Assembly: GCA_038061225.1 (NCBI GenBank)
Contig: JBBTZT010000003.1
Coordinates: 257,515-321,514 of the forward strand
DNA: 64,000 nucleotides
Reading direction: 5' to 3'
Source of the DNA: Patescibacteria group bacterium
Lineage (GTDB): Bacteria > Patescibacteriota > Microgenomatia > UBA8517
The position numbers and the translations under genes are program-made. Each line of letters begins with the position of its first letter. The stretch's first letter is position 1. The notes under the pieces are model-generated. The model was not told the DNA's origin and did no database searches. It was given only the letters and a program-made list of their open reading frames with translations. Of the stretch, positions 13,854-59,580 are shown in pieces.

Positions 13854-14216
13854 TTGATTGTGTATAATATATTTATGTCAGCAGAAGATATAAAGGTAAT
13901 TAATACTAGACGAGAAGCGGCATATGAATTTGTAAGAAAACATATAAAAGGTCGTGGGGGGGTAGGTTTTGGCGATATCGATCTTGATCCATTAGTGTTA
14001 GATACAATAGAAGTTGTTAGTAATCCTAAACAAATACAGACAAAAGAAGGGATTAAAACTGTTGTTCGTAAGTCAAGAATCATATTTTTATCAAATGGTG
14101 AAGTTGACATAATAGGTGGTGGTTTGAATGCACCAATTTCAGAAAAAGATGCAAATAGAATACTGGGTCGAAAATTGAAAACCCGTTTAACTAAGAGTTT
14201 TCATTTAAAAAAATGA
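13854..14216 (+). CDS. hypothetical protein (possible start at Met 13875)
   Basis: 120-aa ORF directly upstream of the Cas4-like nuclease gene; no recognisable motif. Confidence 0.35.
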   Translation: MIVYNIFMSAEDIKVINTRREAAYEFVRKHIKGRGGVGFGDIDLDPLVLDTIEVVSNPKQIQTKEGIKTVVRKSRIIFLSNGEVDIIGGGLNAPISEKDANRILGRKLKTRLTKSFHLKK

Positions 14217-14228
14217 TAAAATATCTTC

Positions 14229-15056
14229 ATGAGGGATAAATATAAAGCAGTTTGGGTCAGTCACTCTTCAATTTCTGATTTTTTAGCCTGTCCAAGGAGC
14301 TATTATCTTAGAAATGTATATAAAGATCCAAAAACTGGTCATAAAATTACTGTTACTTCTCCCGCACTTTCTTTAGGTTCTGCTGTTCATGAAGTTATTG
14401 AAGGATTGTCAGTTTTAGCTGTTGAAGATAGACTTAAAACACCACTTCTAAAAAAATTTGATATAGCTTGGCAAAAAGTTAGTGGCAAAGTTGGTGGATT
14501 TAAAGATAAAAAACAGGAAGATGAATTTAAAGAAAGAGGGAGAGAAATGCTTAAAAGAGTAGAAAGTCATCCTGGCCCAATTTTAAAAAAAGCAGTAAAA
14601 ATAGCTACTGATTTTTTACCAAATTATTATCTTTCAGAAGAAGATGATATAATTCTTTGTGGAAAAATTGATTGGCTTGAATATTTAGAAGATTCAGATT
14701 CAGTGCATATTATTGACTTTAAAACTGGAAAAAACGAAGAGAATGATGAATCATTACAACTCCCAATTTATTTACTTCTTGCAACAAACACACAAAATAG
14801 AAAAGTTGAAAAAGCTTCATATTGGTATATGAATAAATCTGACGATTTAGTAGAAAAAAGTCTTCCAAATATTGTGGATAGTAAAGATAAAGTGTTGACG
14901 GTTGCAAGAAGAATTAAACTAGCTCGTCAACTTAACCATTTTGTTTGTCCAACAAAAGGTTGTATGAAATGTAGACCATTAGAGCGAATTTTAAAAAGTG
15001 AGGGAGAAAAAGTAGGAGTATCTGACACAAAACAAGATATTTATATATTAGATTGA
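14229..15056 (+). CDS. Cas4-like / RecB-family PD-(D/E)XK nuclease with a 4-Cys (Fe-S) cluster
   Basis: N-terminal Cys in FLACPRSYYL; GKIDWLEY...VHIIDFKTGK (D...DxK); QLPIY (QxxxY); C-terminal CPTKGCMKC (C-x4-C-x2-C). Confidence 0.7.
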   Translation: MRDKYKAVWVSHSSISDFLACPRSYYLRNVYKDPKTGHKITVTSPALSLGSAVHEVIEGLSVLAVEDRLKTPLLKKFDIAWQKVSGKVGGFKDKKQEDEFKERGREMLKRVESHPGPILKKAVKIATDFLPNYYLSEEDDIILCGKIDWLEYLEDSDSVHIIDFKTGKNEENDESLQLPIYLLLATNTQNRKVEKASYWYMNKSDDLVEKSLPNIVDSKDKVLTVARRIKLARQLNHFVCPTKGCMKCRPLERILKSEGEKVGVSDTKQDIYILD

Positions 15057-15078
15057 TTAAAAATGGTATTATAAAAAC

Positions 15079-15780
15079 ATGTCATTGCTACCGTTTATAA
15101 AAGATGATGATTTTATATCAGAGGTAAAAAAAGTTTTAGAGGTGGATAAAAATGATTCAAGAAAAAACAAGTCAATAAGAAATTCTATAGACCCTTTTTC
15201 AGCAATATTTGATGCATCAATTCAAAGCATCCCGATTAATTTGTGGTTTGAACTTGAGGCTAGAAGACAATCTCAAAAAACCCTTCAAAATAAACTTGGA
15301 TTATTTCATCAGAATATATTAGGCCATGTAAGAGGGTGGATCAACTTAAATACTGGAAAGGTAGTTGATTTACTAAACACCAAAAAGAAGGTAATTGCTG
15401 AAGTTAAAAACAAATTTAACACAACTAAAGGTTCAGATAAAGTTCAAATTTATGATAACATCAAATTTTTATTAGATACAAAATACAAAGGATATGTTGG
15501 TTACTATGTTGAAGTGATACCACAAAATAAGAAAATGTACGATTCTGAATTTACTCCATCAGATAATAAGATCAAAAAAAGAAGACCAAGAAACAAAAAT
15601 ATTAGAATCATAGACGGATCCAGTTTCTATGACTTAGCTACAGGATATAATGACTCATTGTTTATGTTGTATATGGCAATACCAGAAGCTATTACAAAGA
15701 TATTAAAAATTCCTGTAATGAATATTCTAGGCAAGAACGAAATGCTAGAACTTTATAAAGAGGTATATCAAACAAAGTAA
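15079..15780 (+). CDS. putative Type II restriction endonuclease (PD-(D/E)XK-like)
   Basis: 233-aa ORF immediately upstream of a C5-MTase gene. Candidate catalytic motif VVDLL-x9-AEVKNK (D...ExK). No database match could be run. Confidence 0.45.
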   Translation: MSLLPFIKDDDFISEVKKVLEVDKNDSRKNKSIRNSIDPFSAIFDASIQSIPINLWFELEARRQSQKTLQNKLGLFHQNILGHVRGWINLNTGKVVDLLNTKKKVIAEVKNKFNTTKGSDKVQIYDNIKFLLDTKYKGYVGYYVEVIPQNKKMYDSEFTPSDNKIKKRRPRNKNIRIIDGSSFYDLATGYNDSLFMLYMAIPEAITKILKIPVMNILGKNEMLELYKEVYQTK

Positions 15781-15818
15781 CCATTGCATAATGTATTGGT
15801 TATTGATATATTTTATTC

Positions 15819-17114
15819 ATGGATAACTTGCTCACTGTTTCAGATGCGGCCGAATTGGTTGGAGTTTCTACCGATACAATTCGAAGATGGGAAAAGGTTG
15901 GACTTCTTAAATCTCATCGTTCGGAACATAATTATCGTCTTTTCAATTTTGAGGAAATTCAAAGAGTTAGAAATAAAATTAATGGTAGTGATCAGATTAA
16001 CAATTATAAAATTCTCAAAAGCAACAAAACGACTAAATATACAACAATAGAATTGTTTACAGGAGCTGGAGGTACAGCTTTAGGGTTAGAAAATGCAGGA
16101 TTAAAACATTTATTAAATGTTGAATTCGATAAAGATGCAATAAACACAATAAAAAATAATAAACCTGAATGGAACTTAATTGGTAACGATATTTCAGAAG
16201 TTGATTTTAATTCATGGAAAAATAAAGTTGACGTAGTCGAGGGTGGATTTCCATGCCAGTCTTTTAGTTACGCAGGAAAAGGGAAAGGATTCGGAGATAC
16301 TCGTGGTACTTTGTTTTTTGAATTCGCCCGTTGTGTTAAAGAAACAATGCCAAAAATAGCAATTGGTGAAAATGTTAAAGGTTTATTAAGACATGATAAT
16401 GGTAAAACATTATCTACTATGGTTAAAAAACTTCAAGATATTGGTTACAAAGTTGGTTATAAAGTTTTAAGGTCTCAATACCATGATGTACCACAGAAAC
16501 GAGAGAGATTGATAATTATTGGGATAAGAAATGATTTAAATATACCAATGTTAGTTCCAAGAGAAAAAGACTATTACATTTCTATAAAAGAGGCACTAAA
16601 AAATGTTCCTTTATCAAAAGGACAAAATTATCCTGAAAAGAAGAGAAAGGTTTTAGATTTGGTTCCTCCCGGAGGTTGTTGGAGAAATTTACCGCTTGAT
16701 ATTCAAAGAGAATATATGGGCGCTAGTTTTTATTTAGGTGGGGGTAAAACAGGAATGGCAAGAAGACTGTCTTTTGATGAGCCATCATTAACGCTTACTT
16801 GTTCTCCTGCCCAGAAGCAAACTGAAAGATGTCATCCCGTTGAAACAAGACCTTTTACCGTGCGTGAATATGCCAGAATACAAACTTTTCCTGACGATTG
16901 GGAATTTTGTGGTTCTTTGACTTCCCAGTATAAACAAATTGGAAATGCAGTCCCTGTTAACTTAGGTTTTCATATTGGGGAGGCTATAATTGCTATGTTA
17001 CAAAATAAGTATGATTTAAATGATATGGAAATAATCGAGCCTGTAATTTTAGAAAATAATGAAAATCATATATTAAGTAACAACTTTTTATATGTCCAAG
17101 AAAACATATTTTAA
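15819..17114 (+). CDS. DNA (cytosine-5)-methyltransferase with an N-terminal MerR-like HTH domain
   Basis: Motif I ELFTGAGGTALG, motif IV GGFPCQSFS, ENV, motif X QIGNAVPV. The N-terminus LLTVSDAAELVGVSTDTIRRWEKVGLL is a MerR/excisionase-type HTH. Confidence 0.9.
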   Translation: MDNLLTVSDAAELVGVSTDTIRRWEKVGLLKSHRSEHNYRLFNFEEIQRVRNKINGSDQINNYKILKSNKTTKYTTIELFTGAGGTALGLENAGLKHLLNVEFDKDAINTIKNNKPEWNLIGNDISEVDFNSWKNKVDVVEGGFPCQSFSYAGKGKGFGDTRGTLFFEFARCVKETMPKIAIGENVKGLLRHDNGKTLSTMVKKLQDIGYKVGYKVLRSQYHDVPQKRERLIIIGIRNDLNIPMLVPREKDYYISIKEALKNVPLSKGQNYPEKKRKVLDLVPPGGCWRNLPLDIQREYMGASFYLGGGKTGMARRLSFDEPSLTLTCSPAQKQTERCHPVETRPFTVREYARIQTFPDDWEFCGSLTSQYKQIGNAVPVNLGFHIGEAIIAMLQNKYDLNDMEIIEPVILENNENHILSNNFLYVQENIF

Positions 17115-17169
17115 AACAAGATATTTATGTCCTAAATTAATTATTTATATAATAATTTCCTTAGTATAA

Positions 17170-17395
17170 TTTGAGGACTTGGGCTCACAGCAACAGTATT
17201 GTCTGGATGTGGACATAATATTGGTCTAAGGGTGGTACCTGAGTGATGATTCCTGCCGATAATATTTTGGTGTTTTCTATTGGCTTGTCCAAGTCTCCAC
17301 GGCTGACAGATAATTCCCTCTGAAGATATTGTTTTTGCGGCACAGATGGTACACGCTGGATTTGTAGCATTTATTCTGTCTGGCATTTACTTATT
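17170..17395 (+). ncRNA. candidate structured ncRNA, possibly a reduced RNase P RNA (rnpB)
   Basis: A roughly 230-nt GC-rich segment in an AT-rich intergenic context, next to tRNA-Thr. It has blocks resembling RNase P conserved regions: GAGGACUUGGGCUCACAG (cf. GAGGAAAGUCCGGGCUCCAUAG), CUAAGGGUG (cf. GUAAGGGUG), and ACAGAUGG...CGCUGGAUUU (cf. ACAGAACCCGGCUUAU). The only ORF (81 aa, minus strand) has odd composition. Confidence 0.3.
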
Positions 17396-17510
17396 AAAGA
17401 TCATTATTAAATTTAATTCAATCCTATATTTAAATAAAATAAGATGTTAAGATTAGAATTGCGTCTCAGAAGAAATTAAGGATTAGATTGTACTATTTTC
17501 CATAATTTTG

Positions 17511-17581
17511 AGCTGGTGAGTGTAATCGAAACACTGTCGATGGTTTACGATACCACTGCTCTACCACTGAGCTACACCAGC
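17511..17581 (-). tRNA. tRNA-Thr (anticodon CGU)
   Basis: The reverse complement reads GCTGGTGTAGCTCAGTGGTAGAGCAGTGGTATCGTAAACCATCGACAGTGTTTCGATTACACTCACCAGC. Anticodon loop ATCGTAA; T-loop TTCGATT. Confidence 0.85.
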
Positions 17582-18553: not shown

Positions 18554-19585
18554 ATGTCAAACGTAATAAAATGCAAGAATTGTGGAACTGAAATAGATGT
18601 TGGAGAGCAATTGGCTCATGATATTAAAGAATCTGTTGTTCTTGAGGAAAGAAAAAAAGCACAAGAAGAAGTAGATATTGTACGACGAAAGTTCAATACT
18701 GATATGGGCAAGCTTCTTGACGAAATTAAAACTTTGCGTGAGAAAGATCAAATGAGAGATTTGGAAATGAAGAAAAAACTTCTAGAAAGTGAGGAAACAA
18801 TTAAAAATGATTTAAAAATTAAACTTGAAGATGAACATAGATTAAAAGATTTGGAAAATTATAAGAAAATGCAAGATGTTTTGAAAGCTAATGAAGAATT
18901 AAAAAGAAAATTAGAACAAGGATCACAACAAACACAAGGTGAAGTATTAGAACTAACTATAGAGAAAAAATTACGTCAGGATTATCCACAAGATGAAATA
19001 AAAGAAGTTAAAAAGGGAGTAAAAGGAGCTGATGTTATCCAAATTGTTATTGATAAAAAAGGGCAAAAATGTGGAAGCTTACTTTGGGAATCAAAAAATG
19101 CTAAGTGGAGTGAAACATGGATAACAAAACTTAAAGAAGATCAAAGACAGGCCAAGGCAGACCTAGCTATACTTGTCTCAGTTGATTTGCCAGAAGACAT
19201 TAAAGAAAAAGGAATTGGTTATAAAAACGGTATTTGGATATGTGGTGCAACTAATTTTAATCAACTGGCAATGTCTTTAAGATTTAATTTAGTTAATATT
19301 TACTATGAAAAACAAAACGCTGTAGGAGTAGATGAGAAAATGAAAGTACTATATGAGTATTTAACAGGAAATGAATTTAAACATAGAGTAGAGGGAATTG
19401 TGGAAGCTTTTGGAACACTTCAGGACGACATCGAAAGAGAAAAAAGGTGGTTTAGTGCAAAATGGGCAAGACAAGAAAAAGAAATTAGAAAAGTAATTGA
19501 TCATACACATGGAATGTATGGTGATCTTCAAGGTGTTACAGGTAGGGCACTTCCTGAAATAAAATCATTGGAATTAGAAGAATAA
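18554..19585 (+). CDS. DUF2130-like protein: N-terminal CxxC, long coiled coil, C-terminal restriction-endonuclease-like (PD-(D/E)XK-like) domain
   Basis: CKNCGTEI at the N-terminus; an E/K-rich heptad region about 100 aa long; C-terminal GADVIQIV...LLWESKNAKWS (D...ExK-like). Assigned to DUF2130 from memory of the family architecture. Confidence 0.45.
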   Translation: MSNVIKCKNCGTEIDVGEQLAHDIKESVVLEERKKAQEEVDIVRRKFNTDMGKLLDEIKTLREKDQMRDLEMKKKLLESEETIKNDLKIKLEDEHRLKDLENYKKMQDVLKANEELKRKLEQGSQQTQGEVLELTIEKKLRQDYPQDEIKEVKKGVKGADVIQIVIDKKGQKCGSLLWESKNAKWSETWITKLKEDQRQAKADLAILVSVDLPEDIKEKGIGYKNGIWICGATNFNQLAMSLRFNLVNIYYEKQNAVGVDEKMKVLYEYLTGNEFKHRVEGIVEAFGTLQDDIEREKRWFSAKWARQEKEIRKVIDHTHGMYGDLQGVTGRALPEIKSLELEE

Positions 19586-19627: not shown

Positions 19628-20624
19628 ATGACAACTTCTAAAATTAAAATTCAAAATAATACTTTCAAAGAAGTGATGATTTACCAGACTCCAGACAAGA
19701 GTGTAAAAGTCGAGATTTATTTAAAGGATGAAAATTTATGGCTAACTCAGATTAGAATAGCTGAATTGTTTGGCGTTGAAAGAAGTGTTGTCACAAAGCA
19801 TTTAAAGAATATTTTTTATGAACGAGAGTTAGATTTAAAAAGCAATGTGCAAAAAATGCACATTGCTAAGTCTGATAAACCAGTTAAATACTATAATCTT
19901 AATGTAATTATTGCTGTTGGGTATAGAATCAACTCAATTAAGGCCACAAAATTTCGTATTTGGGCTACTCAAGTTTTAAAGGAATACATAGGACGATGAA
20001 AGATTAAAAGATCCTGATCAAATATTTGGTAAGGATTACTTTGAAGAGCAGCTCGCGAGAATCAGAAATATCCGTTCAAGCGAGAGAAGGATGTATCAAA
20101 AGATTACTGATATCTATGCAGAATGCAGTGCCGACTATGATCCAAATAGTGATATGACCAAAGACTTTTTTGCTACAGTTCAGAATAAACTGCATTTTGC
20201 TATTACTGGTCAAACCGCCGCAGAAATTATAGCTAAGAGAATTGGTAATAAAAAGTTAAATATGGGATTAACAAATTGGAAAAATGGACCAAAAGGCAAA
20301 ATTAGAGAAACTGATGTGGTAATTGCAAAGAATTATTTAAATGAAATAGAGCTGGATAAATTAAACAGAATTGTAACTGTTTACTTAGATTATGCAGATA
20401 TGATGGCAAAAGATAGGATTGTTATATATATGGAAGATTGGATCAAGAAACTGGATGCTTTTCTTAAATTTAGTGAGAAGGACATACTTTCAGATAATGG
20501 AAAAGTAAGTTATGAAGTTGCAGAACAATTGGCATTGGGAGAATATAAAAAGTTTAGAATTAAACAAGACAAAAATTATATCTCAGATTTTGATAGAGAA
20601 GTTAAAAAACTTTTAAAAAAATAG
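19628..20624 (+). pseudogene. rhuM: rhuM-family (virulence RhuM) gene disrupted by a frameshifting deletion
   Basis: ORF 19628-19999 carries the RhuM N-terminal part (...QIRIAELFGVERSVVTKHLKNIF...). ORF 20091-20624 carries the C-terminal part (YQKITDIYA...). The +1-frame translation of the gap (DDERLKDPDQIFGKDYFEEQLARIRNIRSSERR) is also RhuM. About 14 nt encoding IKGFVL appear to be missing at about 19990. Confidence 0.75.
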
Positions 20625-21064
20625 CAAAAACTAGAACTGGGATTCGAAAACTTGTTCTGTCTTATAACTCCTAACTTTAAGAATTTGAAGTGTTGGGTCA
20701 GTAACTTTATAGTCCGAGTTTTCTGCAACAAACAACCCGATTCCAATGTGCGGAATATAACCCAAATCTTTTCTGAAAAATGGAGCCAATATACCAGTAT
20801 AAAGCTTATCGTGAAGGGCAATCACAATGATCCCAAGATTTATCTAATCCTAGTAAATGAATTTTAAAAGACCTCTCATCTTTAACTTAATTATCGGTTT
20901 ATGTAAGTTTCTACTAATTTAGCCTTGAAGTTTCCTAATTCCTCATAATAGGTCACTTTTACCCCTTATTTACCTTCTTTTAACTATTGTTAACTAAGCA
21001 TTTTAGCTGTACAATTATGCATAATAGGAATTATCTAAAAGTAATACTTTTTTGACGACCAAAA

Positions 21065-21259
21065 ATGCCAAAAGACGATAAAAGGTTGCCGGAACTATTA
21101 ACCATTGCGCAGGTGGCGAAAATTCTTAATGTCCACCCGACTACGCTTAGGCGGTGGGATAAGAAAGGAAAGTTAAAAGCCATTCGTGTAGGCACGAGAC
21201 GCGGTGTTGGCGAAAGACGCTATCACCGAGAGGATATTATAAAGTTAATAACAAAGTAA
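21065..21259 (+). CDS. excisionase-family HTH DNA-binding protein (Xis/AlpA-like)
   Basis: LLTIAQVAKILNVHPTTLRRWDKKGKLKAIRVGTRRGVGERRYHREDI matches the excisionase-family HTH consensus. Confidence 0.75.
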   Translation: MPKDDKRLPELLTIAQVAKILNVHPTTLRRWDKKGKLKAIRVGTRRGVGERRYHREDIIKLITK

Positions 21260-21263
21260 ATTT

Positions 21264-24200
21264 ATGTATACGCCGAATAAATCAATTATTGATAATGATA
21301 AAATTAAGCTCTTTACAGAGTTAAAGAACATTCTTAATGACCAGCCTAGCAACTTTGACGTAGCTACCGGCTATTTTAATGTTGGAGGCTTCGAGTTAGT
21401 CGCCCAAGAAATAAAAAATGTCAAAAAGTTCAGATTATTACTTGGAAAGTCACCAAGTGTTGATGACAAGTTGGTACCGGATTTATTCGAGCCAGTAGCG
21501 TTTTATAAGACCAATCTTAAAGAAGACCTCGAAAACGAAGAATTTACCTCTAAAAAGTCTCAGGCGGTCAAAAACCTCATAGCTTTTCTTGAAAAGCAGG
21601 ATGTTGAAGTTAAACTACTGGAAAAACCCTTTCTTCATGGCAAGGCTTACATTTTTAATGATCTGGCTATCATTGGCTCTAGCAACTTCACTTATTCGGG
21701 ACTTGCCGGCAATACAGAATTAAACGCAGTGCTCATTGATCCGCACCCCGTTTATCTTAAAAAAGAATGGTTTGATAAGTTTTGGGAGCAAGCCCGCGAT
21801 TTTAAGCAAGAGCTTATTGAAATCCTCAAAAGCTCAAAGTTAGGTACAAGGGAATACTCGCCTTACGAAGTTTATATTAAAGCGCTCTATGAACTTCAAA
21901 AGAAAGAGCTGGAACCTACGGAAGCCCCCAGAAACGAGCGTTTGCCCGAAAGCGTAGTAGATTTAGCAACATTTCAAGAAGACGCGGTTAATCGTGTGTA
22001 CTCATCGCTCACCAACTATAATGGCGTCTTAGTTGCTGATTCTGTCGGTCTTGGTAAAACATGGATTGCAAAAAAAGTCATTGAGGACTTTGGTTTTTAT
22101 AGAAGACGTAAGTTCTTGGTTATATGTCCAGCTTCACTTCACCGAATGTGGCAAGCTGAGCTTAAAGACTTGGGTGTTTCAGAAAATATCATCCATCAAG
22201 AGTATTTAGGAGGAGAAGGCTTGGACTTTGAAGATTTAGAGAAACGCCATCAGATAAAGTTTGCCGATATCTCCCTCATTGTAATTGACGAGTCTCACAA
22301 CTTCAGAAATCCCATATCTAACCGCTATGAAAACCTTTTTTCACTTATAGAAAAAATTCGCTCATTCGGTAAAACCCCAAAGGTAATTTTAATGACTGCA
22401 ACTCCAATGAATAACACTATTTGGGACTTTTACTTTCAACTTATGCTTATTGGTCAAAACAATAAGCGCATGTTTATTAAGCAAGGAATTTTTGACTTGC
22501 AAAAAGAGTTTAGCAAAGCCCAGAAAGGAAATACCAACCACATTAACGATGTTTTGCAATCAATCTCCATTCGTAGAACACGCCAATATATTAGAGAAAA
22601 CTACAAAGATGCAAAATTCAAAACAGAGACAGGGGAATACAAAAAGATTGAATTCCCAGATAGAAAACTGGAAGAAGTACACTATTCTCTTGATAAAGCC
22701 TATGATGGCCTCTATGCCGAGATTTCGCGCAAGATAGAAGCCGATTTGACTCTTGCTTACTACAAACTCTCCGAGTACAAAGTATCCGAGAAAAAAGATT
22801 TAGTAGAAGTCCACAGAGGACAGGCTTTAGCCGGTATCTTCCAAACAGTTCTTCTAAAAAGATTGGAAAGTTCAGTCGAGGCATTTCGCAAAAGCGTTAA
22901 AAGCCACAAAGAGTTCTTGGGTGAATTTAAAAATGTTGTCCAGAAAGGGAAAATACTACGCAAAAAGTTCTTCCTAAAATACATAAACAGTTTAGATGAA
23001 TCAATCGAGGATATAGATGGCTTGGGAGACTTTGGTAATAGCTTGGAAGATATAGACCTTAAAGACTACGACAAAGAGAAGATGTTTGCTGATATTGACC
23101 AAGATATTAAGGTTTTTTCAACTATTTATGAAGATATAAAAAATATAGATGAAAGCCAAGATGCAAAACTTATTAAATTTAAGGAACATTTACTCAAAAA
23201 TCTTAAAGAGGAAAAAGCCGTTATCTTCTCCTACTACTCCGACACTGTTAAGTATGTCGCTCAAGCATTAGATAAAGATGAGGATTTTAAGAAAAAGTAT
23301 GGTAAGAAGATAGCTTTCATTACTGGTGCTAATTCTTCAAACGAGCGCCAGACTATTATTGAAGATTTCTTAAACGGCAAGACAAATGTTGTTATTTCAA
23401 CCGATATTCTCTCCGAAGGTCAAAACTTGCAACAAGCAAAAACAGTTACTAATTACGATTTACATTGGAATCCGGTGAGAATGATTCAAAGAGCGGGAAG
23501 AATTGACCGTATTGGTACCCCTTTCAAAGAAATTATTATCTATAACTTTTACCCAGAGGATGAGTTGGAATCGCTCCTTGATCTAGTAGAAACCTTACAG
23601 AAAAAAATTATGATGATTAACGATACCATTGGTCTTGACGCCTCTGTTTTAGGTGAGCAGATAAACCCTAAAGTATTTGGTATTATACGGGACTTAAAAA
23701 GTGAGGAAGAAGAAACGAAAGATAAGACAATGGAACTTTTGGAAGCCGAGCAGTTCGGAGGCGGAGAACTTTTCTTCCAGCCCCTGAAAAACTTTGGACT
23801 GGATAAACTCCCCGCGTTTGCCGATGGTTTGCCTCACGGAATACAAAGTGGACTAAAGAAGGGTTATAGAGGCATTTTCTTTTATTTCCAGTATGCAGAG
23901 GAGTATCACTTCTGGTACCTGTACGATTTAATTGACAAAGAATTTAAAACCAACAAGACAGAAATTTTAGACTTTATAGCCTGCAAGCAAGTTGAGCGTC
24001 GAGTTGTCCCCGAAGATTACGATGTTTATTCAGCTCACGATGAAGTAAAAAATCGTATTGCAGAGCTTTTTAATGAAACAAGGTTTGAGGTTGAAATGCG
24101 TACTCCCTCCGGTAAGAAAGAAAAGTTTTTAATTGATATGCGGGATGAATTGGAACATATAAAAACAGAGGTTTTGTTTGAAGAAGATCAAAAGGAGAGA

Positions 24201-24431
24201 ACAAAAATAGAAGAAATTGTTACTAAGATAAACGAGGTCAACTTTACTAAAAAGCGTTTGCAGTATTTAAGGCGTTCTTGGCAGGCTTACAAAAAATCAC
24301 ATCAGAACTGGCGAAAACTGGTTGCAGAGCTTGGTGACTTTTTAGCGGACAAGGTTGAAACACCAACAGAAATTATTGAGGAATTTAATGACAAGAAACT
24401 CAAACTTATTTGCGTTGATTATATTTCATGA
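21264..24431 (+). CDS. fusion of an N-terminal PLD-family (HKD) nuclease domain and an SNF2-family helicase
   Basis: PLD motif FLHGKAYIFNDLAIIGSSNFT (HxK..D..GSxN). SNF2 motifs LVADSVGLGKTW (I), VIDESHNFRN (II), LMTATPMNN (III), ISTDILSEGQNLQ (V) and NPVRMIQRAGRIDRIG (VI). Confidence 0.85.
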   Translation: MYTPNKSIIDNDKIKLFTELKNILNDQPSNFDVATGYFNVGGFELVAQEIKNVKKFRLLLGKSPSVDDKLVPDLFEPVAFYKTNLKEDLENEEFTSKKSQAVKNLIAFLEKQDVEVKLLEKPFLHGKAYIFNDLAIIGSSNFTYSGLAGNTELNAVLIDPHPVYLKKEWFDKFWEQARDFKQELIEILKSSKLGTREYSPYEVYIKALYELQKKELEPTEAPRNERLPESVVDLATFQEDAVNRVYSSLTNYNGVLVADSVGLGKTWIAKKVIEDFGFYRRRKFLVICPASLHRMWQAELKDLGVSENIIHQEYLGGEGLDFEDLEKRHQIKFADISLIVIDESHNFRNPISNRYENLFSLIEKIRSFGKTPKVILMTATPMNNTIWDFYFQLMLIGQNNKRMFIKQGIFDLQKEFSKAQKGNTNHINDVLQSISIRRTRQYIRENYKDAKFKTETGEYKKIEFPDRKLEEVHYSLDKAYDGLYAEISRKIEADLTLAYYKLSEYKVSEKKDLVEVHRGQALAGIFQTVLLKRLESSVEAFRKSVKSHKEFLGEFKNVVQKGKILRKKFFLKYINSLDESIEDIDGLGDFGNSLEDIDLKDYDKEKMFADIDQDIKVFSTIYEDIKNIDESQDAKLIKFKEHLLKNLKEEKAVIFSYYSDTVKYVAQALDKDEDFKKKYGKKIAFITGANSSNERQTIIEDFLNGKTNVVISTDILSEGQNLQQAKTVTNYDLHWNPVRMIQRAGRIDRIGTPFKEIIIYNFYPEDELESLLDLVETLQKKIMMINDTIGLDASVLGEQINPKVFGIIRDLKSEEEETKDKTMELLEAEQFGGGELFFQPLKNFGLDKLPAFADGLPHGIQSGLKKGYRGIFFYFQYAEEYHFWYLYDLIDKEFKTNKTEILDFIACKQVERRVVPEDYDVYSAHDEVKNRIAELFNETRFEVEMRTPSGKKEKFLIDMRDELEHIKTEVLFEEDQKERTKIEEIVTKINEVNFTKKRLQYLRRSWQAYKKSHQNWRKLVAELGDFLADKVETPTEIIEEFNDKKLKLICVDYIS

Positions 24432-24434
24432 GTT

Positions 24435-27400
24435 ATGGGAACAAATATAGACTTAGACGAATTTTTGCCAACAATGGATGCACCGGACAAGGTGTATCAA
24501 CTTTTCGAATCTCTTGGTTTTAAGGTACTCGATTCTCACCTCAAGACAAACCCGTCAGTTTATAACTTACCGGTCAAAGAAGCCGCATTAGTTGAGAAGA
24601 TTTATGCAGTCTCAAATTATGACCGCCGTTTTCAGATTCTTTTATTTAAACTCAAAGAGGAAAACAAAGAAGCAATCCGTACAATACCGGAGAAAATTTT
24701 ACGCGAGGTAGACTTCCCTTTCATTATCTTTACCCCAGATTTTAAGACTTACACTTTTACTCTTGTTGAAAAAGTCCGTGAGGGACCCGGAGAGTTCAAA
24801 CGCAAACTCACAAAACTTGTAGTTGATAGCAGTCAGCCCTATCACACGGACAAAGAAATACTAGGAAGCCTTGCGCTATCTGTTGATACCAAAAACCCCG
24901 TTGAGGTTTATAAAATGTTTCAAAGCGCTTTTAGCGTTGAGAAAGTCACTAAGAAATTCTTTACCGAATATCGGGAAGTTTTTGAAAGATTAGTAGGAGA
25001 AGTTACTAAGCAGAATAAGCACCTGAAATTTACGCTTTTTTCCAGAGATGCTTCTGTAGAAAACTTTGTCAAAATACTTTTAGGTCGTTTAATGTTTCTC
25101 TACTTTATACAAAAGAGGGGCTGGCTTAACTGCTTTGATGGTTGGGGTAGCGGAGATAAAAAGTTTCTCTATAATAAATTTCAAGAGGCAAAGAAAGAAA
25201 AGAAAAACTATTTTAAGGATTACCTCGAACCGCTTTTCTTTGACACTCTCAACAATCCCCGCCGCGATAAGCCAGATCAAGCAACACAGTTTGGCGGTAG
25301 AATCCCTTTCCTAAACGGAGGACTATTTGAACCAGAGTACGACTATCAAGATGTAAGAAATCACATACTTTTAGAAAACTCCACCTTTGATGATGTTTTC
25401 TCGGTTTTTGAGAAATATAACTTTACTGTTAAAGAGGATGAGCCGCTTGAAAAAGAAGTAGCCATTGACCCTGAAATGTTGGGTAAGGTTTTTGAAAATC
25501 TCTTGGAGGAAAACTTACGTAAAGGCAAGGGCACGTATTACACCCCTCGAGAAATCGTCCACTACATGTGCCATGAAAGCCTTATAAACTATCTGGCTTC
25601 CGAAGTTAGCCTAGATCAAGATGTGATAAGGAATTTCTTGGATCGTGAGCAGTCCCTAGAAAAGAAGGAAACTTTAAGTTCTGCTATAAGAGAGAAAGCA
25701 AAGGAAATAGACGAAAAATTAGCTGATATTAAGGTTTTAGACCCTGCCTGCGGTTCTGGCGCTTTCTTGGTTGGTATGCTCCACGAAGTTATAAATGCCC
25801 GCCTAAGTCTTAATCGGGAGCTTGGGCGCAGTCTCTCGGAGTATGAAGTTAAAAAAGCAACAATTCAAAATAATATCTATGGTGTAGATATTGACCCCGG
25901 AGCTTCTGAAATTGCCAAACTTCGTTTATGGTTGACACTTGTTGTTGACCACAATCTCTCCGAAATAGAACCGCTCCCTAATCTTGACTATAAAATTATG
26001 GTCGGTAATTCACTACTCGATGAATTTATGGGCGTAAAACTCTTTAATCCCGAGAACGCAAAAGCTCAAGCAAATGGTAAGAAAATGATTAGTCTTTTTG
26101 ACGAAGATTCACAAGTTTCACTCTTTGAAAATGATGATAAAAAAACAAGTGTCCTAAAAGCCTTGCAAGGGCTACATGCTTTATATTTCAAAGAGTCTGA
26201 CCCCGAAAAGAAGAAGCAAATTAGAACTCAAATAGACAAGATTGAGTTTGATCTTATCGAGGCAACTGTTAATGATGAAGTATCACAACTGGAAAGAAAA
26301 ACTAAAGGAATTGTTGAACCGTATTTGTCTCATGGTATAGGAATTCCAGCGAAAGAAGCGGAGAGAATTTCAAAACTAAGTTCTCAACAAGGACAGATTT
26401 TAGAAACTTTTAATGAGATAAAGAAAAGTAATGTTAAACCATTTTTCTTGTTTCAACTCCATTTCTCCGATGTTTTTGAAAAGAAAGGCGGGTTTGATAT
26501 TGTTATCGCAAACCCACCTTATATGAAAGAGAGAGATAATAAAAAGGTTTTTGAAATAGTCAATAATTCTAGTTTTGGTAAAAAGTATCATCAAGGGAAA
26601 ATGGATTACTGGTATTATTTCTTGCATAAAGCTATTGATATCACAAAAGATAACGGGTTCATCTCCTATATAACGTCTCGGTACTGGATAAATAGTTATG
26701 GTGCAAAAAAACTTATTGAAAGAGTTAATAAAGAGTTATCTTTTGTAAACTTCGTTGATATTGGTAAGTTGAAGGTATTTGATGAAGTAGCTGGCTACCA
26801 TATGATTGCTGTTTATAAAAAGACAGTAGATATTGATCTGTTTACTTATAAAAAACTTCAAAACGAAATTAGTGATATAAGTAAAAGTTCTAATACTGAA
26901 AACCTAGAAATAAAAACATTATCAAAGAAGGAAATATTTACTGATAATGACGAGATTATTTTGGAAACCGATGGTTTAAAATATGATAATGTTGTTTTAT
27001 TAGGTTCAATCGCAGATACCTCGGTTGGAGTTCAAGAATCCCCTGACAAAATTAATAGTAAGCTCCTTCTAAGTGCAAAGCGAACAGATATATCTGTTGG
27101 TGATGGTGTTTTTGTTTTATCGCAAAAAGAATTAGATAACCTACGGCTAAAAGAGATTGGCCGACTGCCAATAATTAAAAAATATTTAGACCCTAATGAT
27201 GTGTACCGTTATCGAGTTAGTTGGAAAAGTAAGTATCTCATTTATTCTGACAATAAAATTAAGGAGGACATTAAAAGTAACAAGGAATACATTAGTATCA
27301 AGAATCATTTAGACAAATTTAGAGAATTTATTTCCTCTTCAAACAAGCCTTACGGGTTACATAGATCACGCGACATAAAGTATTTTATAGAACCCAAGAT

Positions 27401-27827
27401 TATATTTAAAAATATGTTTATCATGCCCGATTTTACCTACGATGATAAAGGATACTTTTTTGGATTTTCTTTTTCTTCAATAATTCAAAAAGATAAAACT
27501 TTTGACTTGAAATACATTCTAGGTATTTTAAATTCAAAAGTTGCATTTAATTGGTTCCAAAAGAACGGAAAAAGAAGGGGTGCTGGGTTTGATATTGGTG
27601 TTGAAAAACTAAGGCTTTTTCCGATCAAGAAAATTACGCTCCAAGAACAAAAACCAATTATCGAAATTGTCGACAAACTTCTAGATATCACAAAAGATGG
27701 TGATTATTTACAAAACCCCACAAGGCAAACTCAAGTTAAAGACTACGAAAAGCAAATTGACCAGTTAGTTTATAAACTCTATGGCCTAACGCCGGAGGAA
27801 ATTTTAGTTGTGGAGGATCAAAAATGA
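24435..27827 (+). CDS. large gamma-class N6-adenine DNA methyltransferase with a C-terminal TRD-like region (type IIG/Eco57I-like, PglX/DrmMI-like)
   Basis: Motif I VLDPACGSGAFLVGM followed by motif IV VIANPPYMKE (gamma order). N-terminal helical region with ILLGRLMFLYFIQKRGWL. C-terminal YKLYGLTPEEILVVE, typical of the type IIG/PglX family. 1130 aa. Confidence 0.85.
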   Translation: MGTNIDLDEFLPTMDAPDKVYQLFESLGFKVLDSHLKTNPSVYNLPVKEAALVEKIYAVSNYDRRFQILLFKLKEENKEAIRTIPEKILREVDFPFIIFTPDFKTYTFTLVEKVREGPGEFKRKLTKLVVDSSQPYHTDKEILGSLALSVDTKNPVEVYKMFQSAFSVEKVTKKFFTEYREVFERLVGEVTKQNKHLKFTLFSRDASVENFVKILLGRLMFLYFIQKRGWLNCFDGWGSGDKKFLYNKFQEAKKEKKNYFKDYLEPLFFDTLNNPRRDKPDQATQFGGRIPFLNGGLFEPEYDYQDVRNHILLENSTFDDVFSVFEKYNFTVKEDEPLEKEVAIDPEMLGKVFENLLEENLRKGKGTYYTPREIVHYMCHESLINYLASEVSLDQDVIRNFLDREQSLEKKETLSSAIREKAKEIDEKLADIKVLDPACGSGAFLVGMLHEVINARLSLNRELGRSLSEYEVKKATIQNNIYGVDIDPGASEIAKLRLWLTLVVDHNLSEIEPLPNLDYKIMVGNSLLDEFMGVKLFNPENAKAQANGKKMISLFDEDSQVSLFENDDKKTSVLKALQGLHALYFKESDPEKKKQIRTQIDKIEFDLIEATVNDEVSQLERKTKGIVEPYLSHGIGIPAKEAERISKLSSQQGQILETFNEIKKSNVKPFFLFQLHFSDVFEKKGGFDIVIANPPYMKERDNKKVFEIVNNSSFGKKYHQGKMDYWYYFLHKAIDITKDNGFISYITSRYWINSYGAKKLIERVNKELSFVNFVDIGKLKVFDEVAGYHMIAVYKKTVDIDLFTYKKLQNEISDISKSSNTENLEIKTLSKKEIFTDNDEIILETDGLKYDNVVLLGSIADTSVGVQESPDKINSKLLLSAKRTDISVGDGVFVLSQKELDNLRLKEIGRLPIIKKYLDPNDVYRYRVSWKSKYLIYSDNKIKEDIKSNKEYISIKNHLDKFREFISSSNKPYGLHRSRDIKYFIEPKIIFKNMFIMPDFTYDDKGYFFGFSFSSIIQKDKTFDLKYILGILNSKVAFNWFQKNGKRRGAGFDIGVEKLRLFPIKKITLQEQKPIIEIVDKLLDITKDGDYLQNPTRQTQVKDYEKQIDQLVYKLYGLTPEEILVVEDQK

Positions 27828-28855
27828 AAGCAGCAGAAAAACCAAAATATGTTCAAGAAGCACGGAAGTTACTAACTTCAATTGACATTAACCATTTGAT
27901 TTCAAACCCTAATGACCTCAGGGAAATAGACAAAATTAATCGTCTAGTAGCTATTTTTACTAACTTTTCTTCCAATGATGGTCAAGAATTGAAAAGACTC
28001 TTTCAAGAATTTCAAGAGACAGGAAGACGTAGTACTAGTTCGGGAACTATCAAAAATAGAGCCGTAGATGTAATCCAATTTATTGGCCAGAAGATTGAAG
28101 AAATGGATATTTATGTTATAGAACCTGATGAGAAACCACTATTAGAGACGCTGGAAAAATTAAGAAAAATTCAAAAACTAATTCAGGAAGGTTTAGCTCG
28201 GAGTGATGAAAAAACACAAATTATACGGGAGGCTCAAGAAAAATCTAAGTTGTTTAAGGACGATATCTACAAAAGGAAAGCGGAAAAGCTTTCAAAACAG
28301 ACCGTTTGGTCAAAGCAGAGTCATGATGGTTTCGTGGCCGCAGATGAATATGGCCAATTAACTCCTTGGATAGAATTGCTTGAAGATTATTTGGGAGAAG
28401 AAAAGCTCTTAATAAGAGAAAAGGTTATTGAAGATACAACCCCGTATGAAGGAAGAAAATTTCTGAGGTCTATCTTAGAGAAGGCTAACAATGAAGTGGT
28501 TGTGGTTGATAATTTTCTTTCCCACGAGATTTTGGCAATTATTGAACCATATGTATTAAAGGGGGTAGGCTTTAGGTTACTGACACGACAGGCGCACAAT
28601 AGTAAATTTAGGAGTTTTACAGCTGATTATAAAGTCTTTAGACTTCAGCACCAAAATAAAATAGCCGCCAAGGAAAACAAAAAATGCCATGACCGCTTTG
28701 TGATGGTTGATGGTCATATCATATATCATTTCGGAGCCAGCTTAGTTGAATTGGGAAATACCTTATCTGTGGCTCATTTAATTGAAGATCAAAAAGAGAA
28801 AGATAAACTGTTATCTAAATTTACCGATTGGTGGGATACGGGAAAGGACGTTTAA
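27824..28855 (+). CDS. hypothetical protein with a C-terminal degenerate PLD-like (HxRxxxxD...GAS) domain
   Basis: C-terminal HDRFVMVDGHIIYHFGASLVELGN aligns with HxKx4Dx6GSxN but has K->R. Preceded by VVVVDNFLSHEILAIIE. The N-terminal 200 aa are helical and unknown. Its start overlaps the MTase stop by 4 nt. Confidence 0.45.
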   Translation: MKAAEKPKYVQEARKLLTSIDINHLISNPNDLREIDKINRLVAIFTNFSSNDGQELKRLFQEFQETGRRSTSSGTIKNRAVDVIQFIGQKIEEMDIYVIEPDEKPLLETLEKLRKIQKLIQEGLARSDEKTQIIREAQEKSKLFKDDIYKRKAEKLSKQTVWSKQSHDGFVAADEYGQLTPWIELLEDYLGEEKLLIREKVIEDTTPYEGRKFLRSILEKANNEVVVVDNFLSHEILAIIEPYVLKGVGFRLLTRQAHNSKFRSFTADYKVFRLQHQNKIAAKENKKCHDRFVMVDGHIIYHFGASLVELGNTLSVAHLIEDQKEKDKLLSKFTDWWDTGKDV

Positions 28856-28867
28856 GTTTTAATAATC

Positions 28868-30313
28868 ATGGATATTACAGATATCACTGGCTATACATTA
28901 AAAAATCTTAGCAAAATTAACATTGTTTTAGGGAAAAATGGTTGCGGTAAAAGCACACTGTTACGATCAGTTGAACAAGGTTTATCTTCGCAATCGCAGT
29001 CGTATGGAAAAACAAAATACATAACACCGGAAAGAGGAGGATCTCTTATTTATGAAGCTGGTATTGAACAGAGTTTAACAACCGATATAAATTGGCTTTC
29101 AGGTCAAAGGAGAAAAAATCAAGCTGTTGGTTTTAGACAACAAAGCGTAGCTCAGTATCGCAGACTTGAAACTTTGGTATTAAGAGAAATAGAAAAGGAA
29201 AAACGACAACAAAACGATTACACCTTCGACATTTATGTTAATAAAATCAACTCTTTGCTTGACAATATTGAAATAAAAAGACATGATATGACTTTCAAAA
29301 TATACCATAGAGGAACAATCAATGAATTAGGGGCAGAAGTAATCAGCAGTGGCGAAAGCGAACTGATTTCCTTGGGTATTGAATGTTTAATTTTTGGCAA
29401 AGAGTGTATTCCGGACAAAGAAAATATTTTATTTTTAGATGAGCCAGACGTACATTTACACCCAGATTTACAGGTTCGTTTAATGAATTTCCTAGAAGGT
29501 TTGGTTTCGGATAGTAACTTCAAAGTTTTAATTGCCACACACAGTACTGCTATTTTGGGAGCGTTGGAAACTTACACTGATACTCACTTGGCGTTTATGT
29601 CCTTTGAGCAGAAAGAGCTAAACTTTAGAGAAATTTCAGCAGTTTATAGAAAAGTTCTGCCCGTTTTTGGAGCACACCCCTTGTCTAATATTTTCAACGA
29701 AGCACCAATCTTACTTGTTGAAGGTGAGGATGACGAAAGAATTTGGCAACAAGCTGTCCGATCTTCTAATGGCACTATTAAATTATATCCCTGTTCTGTA
29801 GATAGTGTGAGTAATATAAACGATTTTGAACAGGAAGCAAAAGAGATTATTCAATCTGTTTATGACAAAGCCAAAGGTTATTCATTGAGAGATAAGGACA
29901 ATAACACTGAAGAAATCAATGATCTGCCGCCGATAATCAGAATGAGACTAGCATGCAGAAACTCGGAAAACCTTTTGCTTACGGACGAGGTACTTGGAGC
30001 ACTTAATATAACATGGGATCAACTTAAAGAGCGTATTGATATTTGGTTGAGTACCAATACACAACATCCTCACTTTTCGGTTATGAATGGGTTTAAGGAA
30101 GGCGGATACGATAGAAGAAACTTTGATATTAAAGAAGTGCGTAACGATTTAATGGGTGTTGTTGGAAGCGCAAAACCTTGGGAAGTTGTAGTGGGTCAAT
30201 CAATTTCAAGTCTGACTTGGGATGACAGTTCTAATTTTGAGGAAGATGGAAAAATTCTATCCTTTCTTGGACGAAAGATTACAGAAAATCTTATCCCTAA
30301 ATCGAGTAGATGA
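28868..30313 (+). CDS. OLD-family ATP-dependent endonuclease (AAA_21/ABC-type ATPase + TOPRIM)
   Basis: Walker A GKNGCGKSTLL; signature-like ISSGESEL; Walker B ILFLDEPDVHLHPD; TOPRIM-like ILLVEGEDDERIW with downstream acidic residues (VDSVSN). Confidence 0.75.
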   Translation: MDITDITGYTLKNLSKINIVLGKNGCGKSTLLRSVEQGLSSQSQSYGKTKYITPERGGSLIYEAGIEQSLTTDINWLSGQRRKNQAVGFRQQSVAQYRRLETLVLREIEKEKRQQNDYTFDIYVNKINSLLDNIEIKRHDMTFKIYHRGTINELGAEVISSGESELISLGIECLIFGKECIPDKENILFLDEPDVHLHPDLQVRLMNFLEGLVSDSNFKVLIATHSTAILGALETYTDTHLAFMSFEQKELNFREISAVYRKVLPVFGAHPLSNIFNEAPILLVEGEDDERIWQQAVRSSNGTIKLYPCSVDSVSNINDFEQEAKEIIQSVYDKAKGYSLRDKDNNTEEINDLPPIIRMRLACRNSENLLLTDEVLGALNITWDQLKERIDIWLSTNTQHPHFSVMNGFKEGGYDRRNFDIKEVRNDLMGVVGSAKPWEVVVGQSISSLTWDDSSNFEEDGKILSFLGRKITENLIPKSSR

Positions 30314-56707: not shown

Positions 56708-56726
56708 GCTGTATAATTGTACATCG

Positions 56727-59549: not shown

Positions 59550-59580
59550 TTCCAATTTATTATGCTGTTATACTTATACC

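What the first reader, a model, noticed from the sequence alone, without database searches (positions are those of the whole stretch)
13854..17114. Type II RM-like module with a stand-alone Cas4-like Fe-S nuclease and no CRISPR array
Four co-directional genes: an unknown 120-aa protein, a Cas4/RecB-like PD-(D/E)XK nuclease, a 233-aa candidate REase and an HTH-fused C5-MTase.

The Cas4-like protein has QxxxY, DxK and four Cys arranged C...C-x4-C-x2-C. The candidate REase has VVDLL-x9-AEVKNK.

No CRISPR repeats or other cas genes occur anywhere in the window. The Cas4-like protein is therefore a solo accessory, possibly a DNA-end-processing or anti-plasmid partner of the RM pair.
Basis: partly seen in the sequence, partly recalled or inferred. 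Interest (0 to 1): 0.55.

Follow-up and report, generated by a model that had tools for sequence, protein, structure and literature searches.

The report
Restriction cassette beside a core nuclease
An ordinary, mobile two-gene restriction-modification cassette has inserted next to a conserved stand-alone Cas4-family nuclease gene of a groundwater Patescibacteria genome, and comparison with relatives indicates the two are neighbours by accident and not a four-gene defence module.

Summary
All four ORFs and the quoted motifs are real. The 233-aa protein is an Eco47II-family type II REase. The 431-aa protein is a MerR-HTH-fused C5-MTase. The 275-aa protein is a PDDEXK_1 iron-staple nuclease that scores below the Cas4 cut-offs.

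The four genes do not form one module:
- The nuclease is a vertically inherited, strongly conserved stand-alone gene across Patescibacteria (>6,600 homologs). None of 31 species-representative loci has an Eco47II REase within 6 kb.
- Only 1 of 63 informative Eco47II loci has the nuclease beside it.
- In the window's closest relative (89% identical nuclease) the nuclease stop abuts tRNA-Thr. In the window, 2.45 kb (15057-17507) lies between them, bracketed by a duplicated nuclease gene end.
- Another relative carries the same pair after DUF2130.
- ORF1 is a narrow-range orphan, absent from several close relatives.

REase→HTH-MTase is a conserved two-gene unit (49 of 56 loci). It has a conserved palindrome over the MTase promoter (window 15779-15801), which implies SsoII/Ecl18kI-like autoregulation.

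By fold the nuclease is closest to ACE1 and the AdnAB/Dna2 nuclease domains, not CRISPR Cas4. Solo Cas4-family genes in CPR bacteria were already described in 2017. Interest is low.

The parts
13875..14216 (+). Not part of the R-M cassette.
   Evidence: No Pfam, NCBIfam, PADLOC or PHROG hit. Only 3 clusters in 5.8 billion proteins and 20 hits in 1.84 billion representatives. Present in L001 (77%), L006 (48%) and L007 (32%); absent in L004, L019, L020 and L045. AF2 pLDDT 52.
14229..15056 (+). Stand-alone Cas4-family (PF12705) iron-staple PD-(D/E)XK nuclease, a conserved Patescibacteria gene.
15029..15059 (+). Left copy of the junction repeat D1. It is the present 3' end of the nuclease gene (KQDIYILD*) and overlaps a promoter-like site (15022-15049) upstream of the REase.
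15057..17507 (.). Segment absent from the closest relatives (L001-L003), in which the nuclease stop abuts tRNA-Thr. It contains the R-M cassette, the D1 relic and orf81.
15079..15780 (+). Eco47II-family type IIP restriction endonuclease (predicted GGNCC); catalytic D97...E108-x-K110.
15779..15801 (+). Conserved operator-like dyad AACCATTGCA-TAA-TGTATTGGTT, overlapping the -35 (TTGCAT, 15784-15789) of the MTase promoter. Spacer 17 nt; -10 TATATT at 15807-15812.
   Evidence: the motif is present in 57 of 83 cassette loci, always between REase and MTase, and occurs only once in the window.
15819..17114 (+). C5 cytosine DNA methyltransferase with an N-terminal MerR-type HTH (about residues 4-52; MTase domain residues 74-391).
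   Evidence: HTH-MTase lies directly downstream of the REase in 49 of 56 informative loci.
17113..17143 (+). Right copy of D1: a displaced relic of a nuclease gene 3' end. In frame it reads KQDIYVLN*, identical to the real C-terminus of the L016 nuclease.
   Evidence: the only >=22/31 match among 63,906 window positions.
17141..17386 (-). orf81, a small conserved ORF of unknown function inside the variable slot.
   Evidence: Called as a gene in public assemblies. 51% identical homolog in the same slot of L019. No family hit.
17510..17581 (-). tRNA-Thr(CGT), the conserved right-hand anchor of the variable slot.

Best explanation
The region holds two unrelated things that are adjacent by insertion history.

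(1) A self-contained, horizontally mobile type IIP restriction-modification cassette. It has an Eco47II-family PD-(D/E)XK endonuclease, predicted to cut GGNCC, followed by its C5 methyltransferase. The methyltransferase's N-terminal MerR-type HTH is inferred to bind a conserved palindrome overlapping its own -35 element. That would repress M transcription once enough enzyme is present (SsoII/Ecl18kI-like negative feedback). The REase is inferred to be read from a promoter in the 3' end of the upstream gene, or by read-through.

The cassette lies in a variable slot between a conserved nuclease gene and tRNA-Thr. Its insertion duplicated the last ~30 nt of the nuclease gene.

(2) The 'Cas4-like' protein is a vertically inherited, strongly conserved stand-alone Cas4-family (PF12705) iron-staple nuclease of Patescibacteria. 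It most likely works as a housekeeping processing nuclease for ssDNA or DNA ends in recombination and repair, in the way the AdnAB, AddB and Dna2 nuclease domains do.

ORF1 is a lineage-specific orphan that is independent of both.

Shown: gene identities, motif conservation, insertion boundaries, phyletic discordance and the conserved dyad. Inferred: GGNCC specificity, HTH-operator binding and the nuclease's cellular role.
For: Identities.

Nuclease is core-like:
- >6,600 homologs and 120 clusters at 70-100% identity.
- Against L001 it is tied with the Ig-like protein as the best-conserved gene of the neighbourhood (both 89%; OxRed 61%, Wzy 78%).
- The synteny GT-Wzy-Big-nuclease-tRNA-Thr-oxidoreductase is kept in relatives.
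- It is found in 31 species representatives across many CPR classes with no recurrent neighbour.

R-M is mobile:
- Only 569 homologs, with identity dropping 93/74/59/~50%.
- Absent next to the nuclease in 31 of 31 representatives.
- The nuclease is beside the REase in only 1 of 63 Eco47II loci.
- The same pair sits after DUF2130 in L004.
- The family is also on Psychrobacter and Vibrio plasmids.

Insertion:
- L001-3 align up to 15056 and resume at 17508.
- In L001 the nuclease stop abuts tRNA-Thr.
- The D1 junction duplication encodes an alternative nuclease C-terminus.
- The slot length varies from 0 to 3.3 kb and holds unrelated cargo.
- In the NJ tree the window is sister to the R-M-less L001 (bootstrap 90).

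Regulation:
- Conserved dyad over a TTGCAT-17-TATATT promoter.
- Precedent in PMC2760811 and PMC3978073.

Nuclease fold.

Literature: solo-Cas4 is over-represented and vertically inherited in CPR, and pfam12705 is not CRISPR-linked (PMC5704561).
Against: - Three lineages (window, L015, L016/17) share the tight nuclease-REase-MTase arrangement, with gaps of 2-22 nt and no terminator. They are not monophyletic in the weakly resolved nuclease tree. That could mean repeated targeting of this site or selection for the adjacency.
- The nuclease's cellular role is untested. Its closest solved relative, ACE1, is a defence accessory, and some solo-Cas4 proteins reduce plasmid load (PMC12094033).
- GGNCC depletion (0.61) is no stronger than for some other sites: CCNGG 0.46 and CGNGC 0.59.
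- The rest of the genome was not examined for CRISPR-cas or for AddAB/RecBCD.
Confidence: 0.8

Rival explanations
1. One reading: the Cas4-like nuclease (with or without ORF1) is a functional accessory of the R-M pair. For example, it might process REase-generated ends or degrade restricted DNA, so that the four genes form one defence operon.
For: Co-directional, tightly spaced genes with no terminator-like site. The same nuclease-REase-MTase order in L015 and L016/17. Precedents for Cas4-family nucleases assisting non-CRISPR defence: ACE1-pAgo (PMC12094033) and UvrD-Cas4 next to type III R-M or Dcm (PMC5704561).
Against: 0 of 31 species-representative nuclease loci have the REase. Only 1 of 63 REase loci has the nuclease. 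The closest relative lacks the R-M pair and L004 has it elsewhere. The nuclease is equally conserved with or without R-M. ORF1 is absent in several relatives. An insertion scar is present.
Confidence: 0.07
2. The nuclease is itself a stand-alone defence gene (a solo-Cas4-type anti-plasmid or anti-phage nuclease). The slot is then a small defence islet in which an R-M cassette landed beside another, independent defence gene.
For: PADLOC Cas4 and Aga_Cas4-like_Nuc hits. The closest solved structure is ACE1. Modest stand-alone plasmid interference is reported for MaACE1 and for a solo-Cas4 (PMC12094033). A defence island lies 2.5 kb further on, at 19.6-30.3 kb.
Against: Very high conservation, fixed synteny and near-universal vertical presence across CPR classes are typical of housekeeping genes, not defence genes. 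The slot's other cargo is not defence-related: NUDIX, hydrolases and DUF4112. The 2017 analysis found solo-cas4 evolving like 'regular' cellular genes.
Confidence: 0.13

Closest known systems
Eco47II / Sau96I type IIP restriction-modification systems (Pfam PF09553 REase + Dcm-type C5-MTase)
   Same: The REase matches RE_Eco47II end to end (171.6 bits) with invariant D...ExK. A C5-MTase with all canonical motifs is adjacent. The same two-gene unit occurs in 49 of 56 informative loci.
   Different: Only ~50% identical to most family members. The host is a Patescibacteria MAG. Specificity (GGNCC) is inferred, not measured.
SsoII / Ecl18kI-type R-M regulation by an N-terminal HTH of the C5-MTase (PMC2760811, PMC3978073)
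   Same: An N-terminal ~70-aa HTH region fused to a C5-MTase. A single long palindromic operator overlaps the M promoter, distinct from the methylation site.
   Different: The genes are co-directional (R then M), not divergent. The HTH scores as MerR-type. The operator sequence is unrelated (AACCnTTGC...GCAnnGGTT against AGGACAAAT-T-TTGTCCT type). Binding is untested.
Solo-Cas4 / pfam12705 Cas4-like nucleases of CPR bacteria (Hudaiberdiev et al. 2017, PMC5704561)
   Same: A stand-alone ~275-aa protein with RecB motifs and the 1+3 Cys iron staple. No CRISPR context, vertical inheritance and wide distribution in CPR.
   Different: None of substance; this protein appears to be a member of that already noted but functionally uncharacterised group.
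ACE1, Argonaute-associated Cas4-family enzyme (PDB 9iab/9iac; PMC12094033)
   Different: 14-17% identity. No pAgo gene is beside the nuclease in the window or in any of the loci examined. ACE1 is restricted to cyanobacteria.
Nuclease domains of AdnAB, AddAB and Dna2
   Different: No helicase domain and no conserved helicase neighbour. It is a full-length stand-alone protein, not a fragment.

Membership tests
CRISPR-associated Cas4 (PF01930 / TIGR00372) | Scores above the curated cut-off of a Cas4 model | tested here: not met
   PF01930 18.7 bits against 22.7; TIGR00372 36.1 against 65.
CRISPR-associated Cas4 (PF01930 / TIGR00372) | Encoded next to cas1/cas2 or a CRISPR array | tested here: not met
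   No array in the window. The flanking genes are an Ig-like protein, ORF1 and the REase. No recurrent neighbour in 22 distant loci. The rest of the genome was not examined.
CRISPR-associated Cas4 (PF01930 / TIGR00372) | RecB nuclease motifs plus four Cys (one N-terminal, three C-terminal) for an Fe-S cluster | tested here: met
   C21, D148, D163xK165, Q177xxxY181 and C240/C245/C248 are invariant in 22 sequences. Metal content is not testable here.
PDDEXK_1 (PF12705) / solo-Cas4-like nucleases | Full-length match above the gathering score | tested here: met
   83.8 bits against 22; residues 10-248 cover model positions 2-240 of 247.
PDDEXK_1 (PF12705) / solo-Cas4-like nucleases | Stand-alone protein, vertically inherited, outside CRISPR loci | tested here: met
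   120 clusters of 266-288 aa. Conserved synteny. 31 CPR species representatives.
   Uniform ~275-aa length across homologs and no helicase neighbour.
ACE1 (pAgo-associated Cas4-family enzyme) | Operon with a long-A pAgo | tested here: not met
   No Argonaute-sized gene is adjacent in the window or in relatives. The fold similarity alone is high.
Type II R-M, Eco47II family | REase matches PF09553 with conserved PD-(D/E)XK catalytic residues | tested here: met
   171.6 bits. D97, E108 and K110 are invariant.
Type II R-M, Eco47II family | Adjacent cognate C5-MTase with motifs I, IV, VI, VIII and X | tested here: met
   PF00145 276 bits. FTGAGG, PCQ, ENV, QKRER and GNAVP are present in the translation. 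The pair is conserved in 49 of 56 loci.
Type II R-M, Eco47II family | Recognises and cleaves GGNCC; the MTase protects GGNCC | not testable with these tools
   Only indirect evidence: 26 GGNCC sites observed against 43-60 expected, but CCNGG and CGNGC are similarly depleted.
SsoII/Ecl18kI-type MTase-autoregulated R-M | N-terminal HTH domain on the C5-MTase | tested here: met
   MerR 48 bits and MerR_1 42 bits at residues 6-51. The domain is retained in all 49 co-directional cassettes.
SsoII/Ecl18kI-type MTase-autoregulated R-M | Palindromic operator overlapping the M promoter | tested here: met
   The dyad at 15779-15801 overlaps -35 TTGCAT. It is conserved in 57 of 83 loci and unique in the window. 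Binding itself is not testable here.
SsoII/Ecl18kI-type MTase-autoregulated R-M | Divergently arranged R and M genes sharing the regulatory region | tested here: not met
   R and M are co-directional with a 38-nt spacer.

The most novel reading that the evidence does not exclude
In one Microgenomates sub-clade the Eco47II cassette has been captured repeatedly or retained specifically at the 3' end of the solo Cas4-family nuclease gene. The reason would be that the two cooperate: the housekeeping nuclease processes REase-generated ends in a RecBCD-like post-restriction degradation step, in genomes that lack RecBCD/AddAB. The cassette would also use the nuclease gene's transcription and its last ~16-30 nt as an attachment site.
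Probability: 0.07. Interest if true: 0.55.

Novelty: new member of a known kind. Interest (0 to 1): 0.2.

Why it matters
As proposed, a Cas4-like accessory to a type II R-M system would have been a new kind of composite defence system. The evidence points against that, which removes a false lead.

What remains is of modest value:
- A clean natural example of an R-M cassette insertion with a readable junction scar in a CPR genome.
- A conserved operator dyad that makes the HTH-MTase autoregulation of the whole Eco47II cassette family directly testable.
- A confident structural model for the widespread but uncharacterised solo Cas4-family nuclease of Patescibacteria. Its role (repair or defence) is a real open question, though one already posed in 2017.

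Tried and rejected
- tRNA-targeted integrative island: tRNA-Thr is the right-hand anchor, but there is no integrase and no repeat of the tRNA 3' end. The only junction repeat is the nuclease gene end.
- General 3'-end-duplication mechanism for the cassette: no equivalent junction repeat in L004 or L015.
- GGNCC avoidance as evidence for specificity: the depletion is real, but matched controls show it is not specific.
- A conserved partner gene for the nuclease across CPR: none found.
- Function of ORF1 and orf81: no family hit. The ORF1 structure model was too poor (pLDDT 52), so no fold search was run.
- Sequence-only PDB search: it gave no Cas4 or AddB hit and only weak ACE1 hits, so fold comparison was needed.
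- Single monophyletic origin of the R-M-bearing lineages: not supported, but the tree is weakly resolved.
- 'mad3/mad8' PADLOC hits elsewhere in the window: they fall in a 947-aa ABC ATPase that is probably UvrA, so they are not taken as defence.
Full report
OBSERVATION

The four co-directional ORFs exist as described.

Profile searches identify them as follows.
- The 233-aa protein is an Eco47II-family restriction endonuclease (PF09553, 171.6 bits; PADLOC REase_II).
- The 431-aa protein is a C5 cytosine methyltransferase (PF00145, 276 bits) with an N-terminal MerR-type HTH (PF00376 48 bits, PF13411 42 bits).
- The 275-aa protein is a PDDEXK_1 nuclease (PF12705, 83.8 bits against a cut-off of 22). 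It matches the Cas4 models only below their cut-offs: PF01930 18.7 against 22.7, and TIGR00372 36.1 against 65.
- ORF1 has no family match in Pfam, NCBIfam, PADLOC or PHROGs. Homolog alignments and public gene calls place its start at ATG 13875, giving 113 aa.

- In 22 nuclease homologs down to 51% identity: C21, D148, D163-x-K165, Q177-xxx-Y181 and C240...C245-x2-C248.
- In 32 REase homologs: D97, E108 and K110.

No CRISPR-like array is in the window. A batch scan of 53 other ORFs listed no cas family, but the output was truncated to the top 25 families.

IS IT ONE MODULE? NO.

The nuclease and the R-M pair have discordant evolutionary behaviour.

The nuclease has more than 6,600 homologs. 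The top 120 clusters are all 70-100% identical and 266-288 aa long, from Patescibacteria/Microgenomates. The REase has 569 homologs, and identity falls 93, 74, 59 and then about 50%.

In the closest relatives, L001-L003 (nuclease 89% identical), the gene order is glycosyltransferases, Wzy, an Ig-like protein, ORF1, the nuclease, then directly tRNA-Thr and an FAD/NAD oxidoreductase. There is no R-M pair. At the DNA level these loci align to the window up to 15056 and resume at 17508. In L001 the nuclease stop codon abuts the 3' end of the convergent tRNA-Thr. The window therefore carries an extra 2.45 kb (15057-17507) holding the REase, the MTase and an 81-aa ORF.

In L004 (nuclease 84%) the same kind of REase + HTH-MTase pair lies 2.7 kb away, after DUF2130.

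Two censuses agree.
- Forward census: 31 species-representative genomes were used, spanning Microgenomates, Woesebacteria, Pace-, Nomura-, Campbell-, Taylor- and Staskawiczbacteria, Parcubacteria and Saccharibacteria. None has an Eco47II REase within 6 kb of the nuclease. Only L035 has a weak C5-MTase fragment nearby. No gene recurs next to the nuclease across orders.
- Reverse census: among 80 metagenomic Eco47II loci, 63 have at least 300 bp upstream. Only one, the L016 contig, has the nuclease there. By contrast, 49 of 56 loci with enough downstream sequence have the HTH-MTase directly downstream on the same strand.

The REase family also occurs on Psychrobacter and Vibrio plasmids.

ORF1 is likewise not a fixed partner. 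It is present in L001 (77%), L006 (48%) and L007 (32%). It is absent in L004, L019, L020 and L045. It has only 3 clusters in 5.8 billion proteins and 20 hits in 1.84 billion representatives.

INSERTION SCAR

A 31-nt direct repeat brackets exactly the R-M pair.
- 15029-15059 is the present end of the nuclease gene and encodes KQDIYILD*.
- 17113-17143 starts within the MTase stop codon and reads in frame as KQDIYVLN*.

That second reading is the actual C-terminus of the L016 nuclease. The 31-mer has no other match at 22 of 31 or better among 63,906 window positions. A 16-nt exact repeat somewhere in this 5.8-kb region is not rare by itself (5.7% of Markov simulations), so the weight of the evidence comes from its position and its reading frame.

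The repeat shows that the last ~30 nt of the nuclease gene were duplicated when the cassette arrived. The exact mechanism is inference: a short-homology crossover with a circular or linear donor, or a target duplication. L004 and L015 show no equivalent duplication.

The nuclease-to-tRNA-Thr interval varies from 0 to 3.3 kb among relatives. It carries unrelated cargo: alpha/beta-hydrolases, three NUDIX genes, DUF4112, PNPOx, orphans, or nothing. It is a general variable slot.

CAVEAT

L015 (REase 93%) and L016/17 (REase 74%) also have the order nuclease-REase-MTase, with gaps of 2-22 nt.

In a neighbour-joining tree of the nuclease, the window groups with the R-M-less L001 (bootstrap 90). L016 branches outside many R-M-less lineages, but most nodes are weak.

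Either an old insertion was lost several times, or the cassette spread among relatives by recombination through the conserved flanks. Neither scenario requires a functional link, but a site preference cannot be excluded.

HOW THE R-M CASSETTE WORKS

The REase is a PD-(D/E)XK enzyme of the Eco47II/Sau96I family (PMC3045609). On my own knowledge, these enzymes recognise GGNCC.

GGNCC is depleted in the window: 26 sites against 43 (mononucleotide or Markov expectation) to 60 (dinucleotide shuffles). CCNGG (0.46) and CGNGC (0.59) are at least as depleted, so this supports the predicted specificity only weakly.

Across cassettes, a palindrome with consensus TAACCcTTGCA-nnn-TGCAAgGGTTA follows the REase stop. 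It overlaps a TTGCAT-17-TATAAT-type promoter for the MTase. The motif occurs in 57 of 83 loci and exactly once in the window.
- Dyad: 15779-15801.
- -35 element: 15784-15789.
- -10 element: 15807-15812.
- MTase ATG: 15819.

This matches the logic shown experimentally for SsoII and Ecl18kI. There, the N-terminal HTH of the MTase binds a single long palindrome and occludes the M promoter (PMC2760811; PMC3978073). Here, however, R and M are co-directional instead of divergent.

The best promoter-like site for the REase, CTGACA-16-TATATT at 15022-15049, lies in the left repeat copy inside the nuclease gene's 3' end. No terminator-like site separates the genes.

WHAT THE NUCLEASE IS

A confident AF2 model (pLDDT 89, pTM 0.84) was compared with solved structures.
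- Foldseek: best matches are the Argonaute-associated Cas4-family enzyme ACE1 (E 6e-9, TM 0.63-0.66). Next come the AdnAB, AddB and Dna2 nuclease domains. CRISPR Cas4 is much weaker (E 2.7e-3 and 3.7e-3).
- By sequence, only ACE1 is detectable in the PDB (E 1.6e-4).

Hudaiberdiev et al. 2017 (PMC5704561) already reported three relevant points. Solo Cas4-family genes are over-represented in CPR and DPANN genomes. They evolve mainly vertically, like ordinary cellular genes. The pfam12705 branch is not CRISPR-associated.

Against L001, the nuclease is tied with the Ig-like protein as the best-conserved gene of its neighbourhood (both 89%; oxidoreductase 61%, Wzy 78%, DUF2130 76%).

I therefore favour a housekeeping role in ssDNA or DNA-end processing. 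This is inferred from fold and evolutionary regime, with about 55-60% confidence for this sub-claim. A stand-alone defence role is the main alternative. ACE1 and one solo-Cas4 show modest plasmid interference (PMC12094033).

VERDICT

The interpretation as a four-gene module with a Cas4-like accessory is not supported.

The locus is an ordinary member of the Eco47II R-M family, inserted beside an already recognised but uncharacterised class of CPR solo Cas4-family nuclease. Novelty: new member of a known kind. Interest: low (0.2).

Noticed in passing
window 19628-30310: A defence-type gene cluster starts 2.5 kb beyond the R-M pair. It contains: a RhuM/PDC-S05 gene split into two ORFs (19628-19999 and 20091-20624, matching consecutive parts of the profile, so probably disrupted); an HKD/PLD+Snf2 helicase (21264-24428, DrmD/BrxH-like); a type IIG REase-MTase (24435-27824); a protein with a RhuM-like C-terminus (27824-28852); and an AriA/PtuA/OLD-like ATPase (28868-30310)..
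   Followed up: partly
window 15779-15801 and 57 of 83 Eco47II cassette loci (L004, L015, L016, L050-L128): A conserved palindrome AACCnTTGC-N5-GCAnnGGTT lies immediately after the REase stop and overlaps the MTase promoter. It is a candidate operator for the MerR-type HTH of the whole cassette family.
   Followed up: yes
window 17141-17386 (- strand): An 81-aa ORF sits in the inserted segment. It is visibly more G+C-rich than its surroundings, is called as a gene in public assemblies, and has a 51% identical homolog in the same variable slot of L019 (5841-6083). No family match.
   Followed up: partly
window 15057-17509; L001, L004, L006, L019, L020, L022, L023: The interval between the nuclease gene and tRNA-Thr(CGT) is a variable slot of 0-3.3 kb. 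Its cargo is unrelated from lineage to lineage: NUDIX x3, alpha/beta-hydrolase, DUF4112, PNPOx, M3 peptidase, or orphans.
   Followed up: yes
whole window: CCNGG is more depleted than GGNCC against a Markov expectation (30 observed against 65.9, ratio 0.46). This may reflect past or present exposure to an SsoII/EcoRII-type system; none was identified in the window.
   Followed up: no
window 13861-13877: An extended -10-like TGTGTATAAT ends 4 nt before the probable ORF1 start codon (ATG 13875), which suggests a leaderless or near-leaderless transcript. The MTase promoter's -10 ends 6 nt before its ATG.
   Followed up: no
window 54025-61404: The PADLOC 'mad3/mad8' hits fall in the C-terminal half of a 947-aa ABC ATPase (56706-59546). 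Window-wide Pfam tallies include UVR, Helicase_C, ResIII and SMC_N, though the batch output does not say which ORFs they belong to. The ATPase is most likely UvrA and not a MADS defence system; a uvrB/uvrC assignment for its neighbours was not checked.
   Followed up: partly
window 18554-19585; L001, L004, L006, L023: The DUF2130 gene is a conserved member of the syntenic block. In L004 it is the left neighbour of the R-M cassette. In the window it is followed by the disrupted RhuM gene instead, so this junction is a second variable spot.
   Followed up: partly
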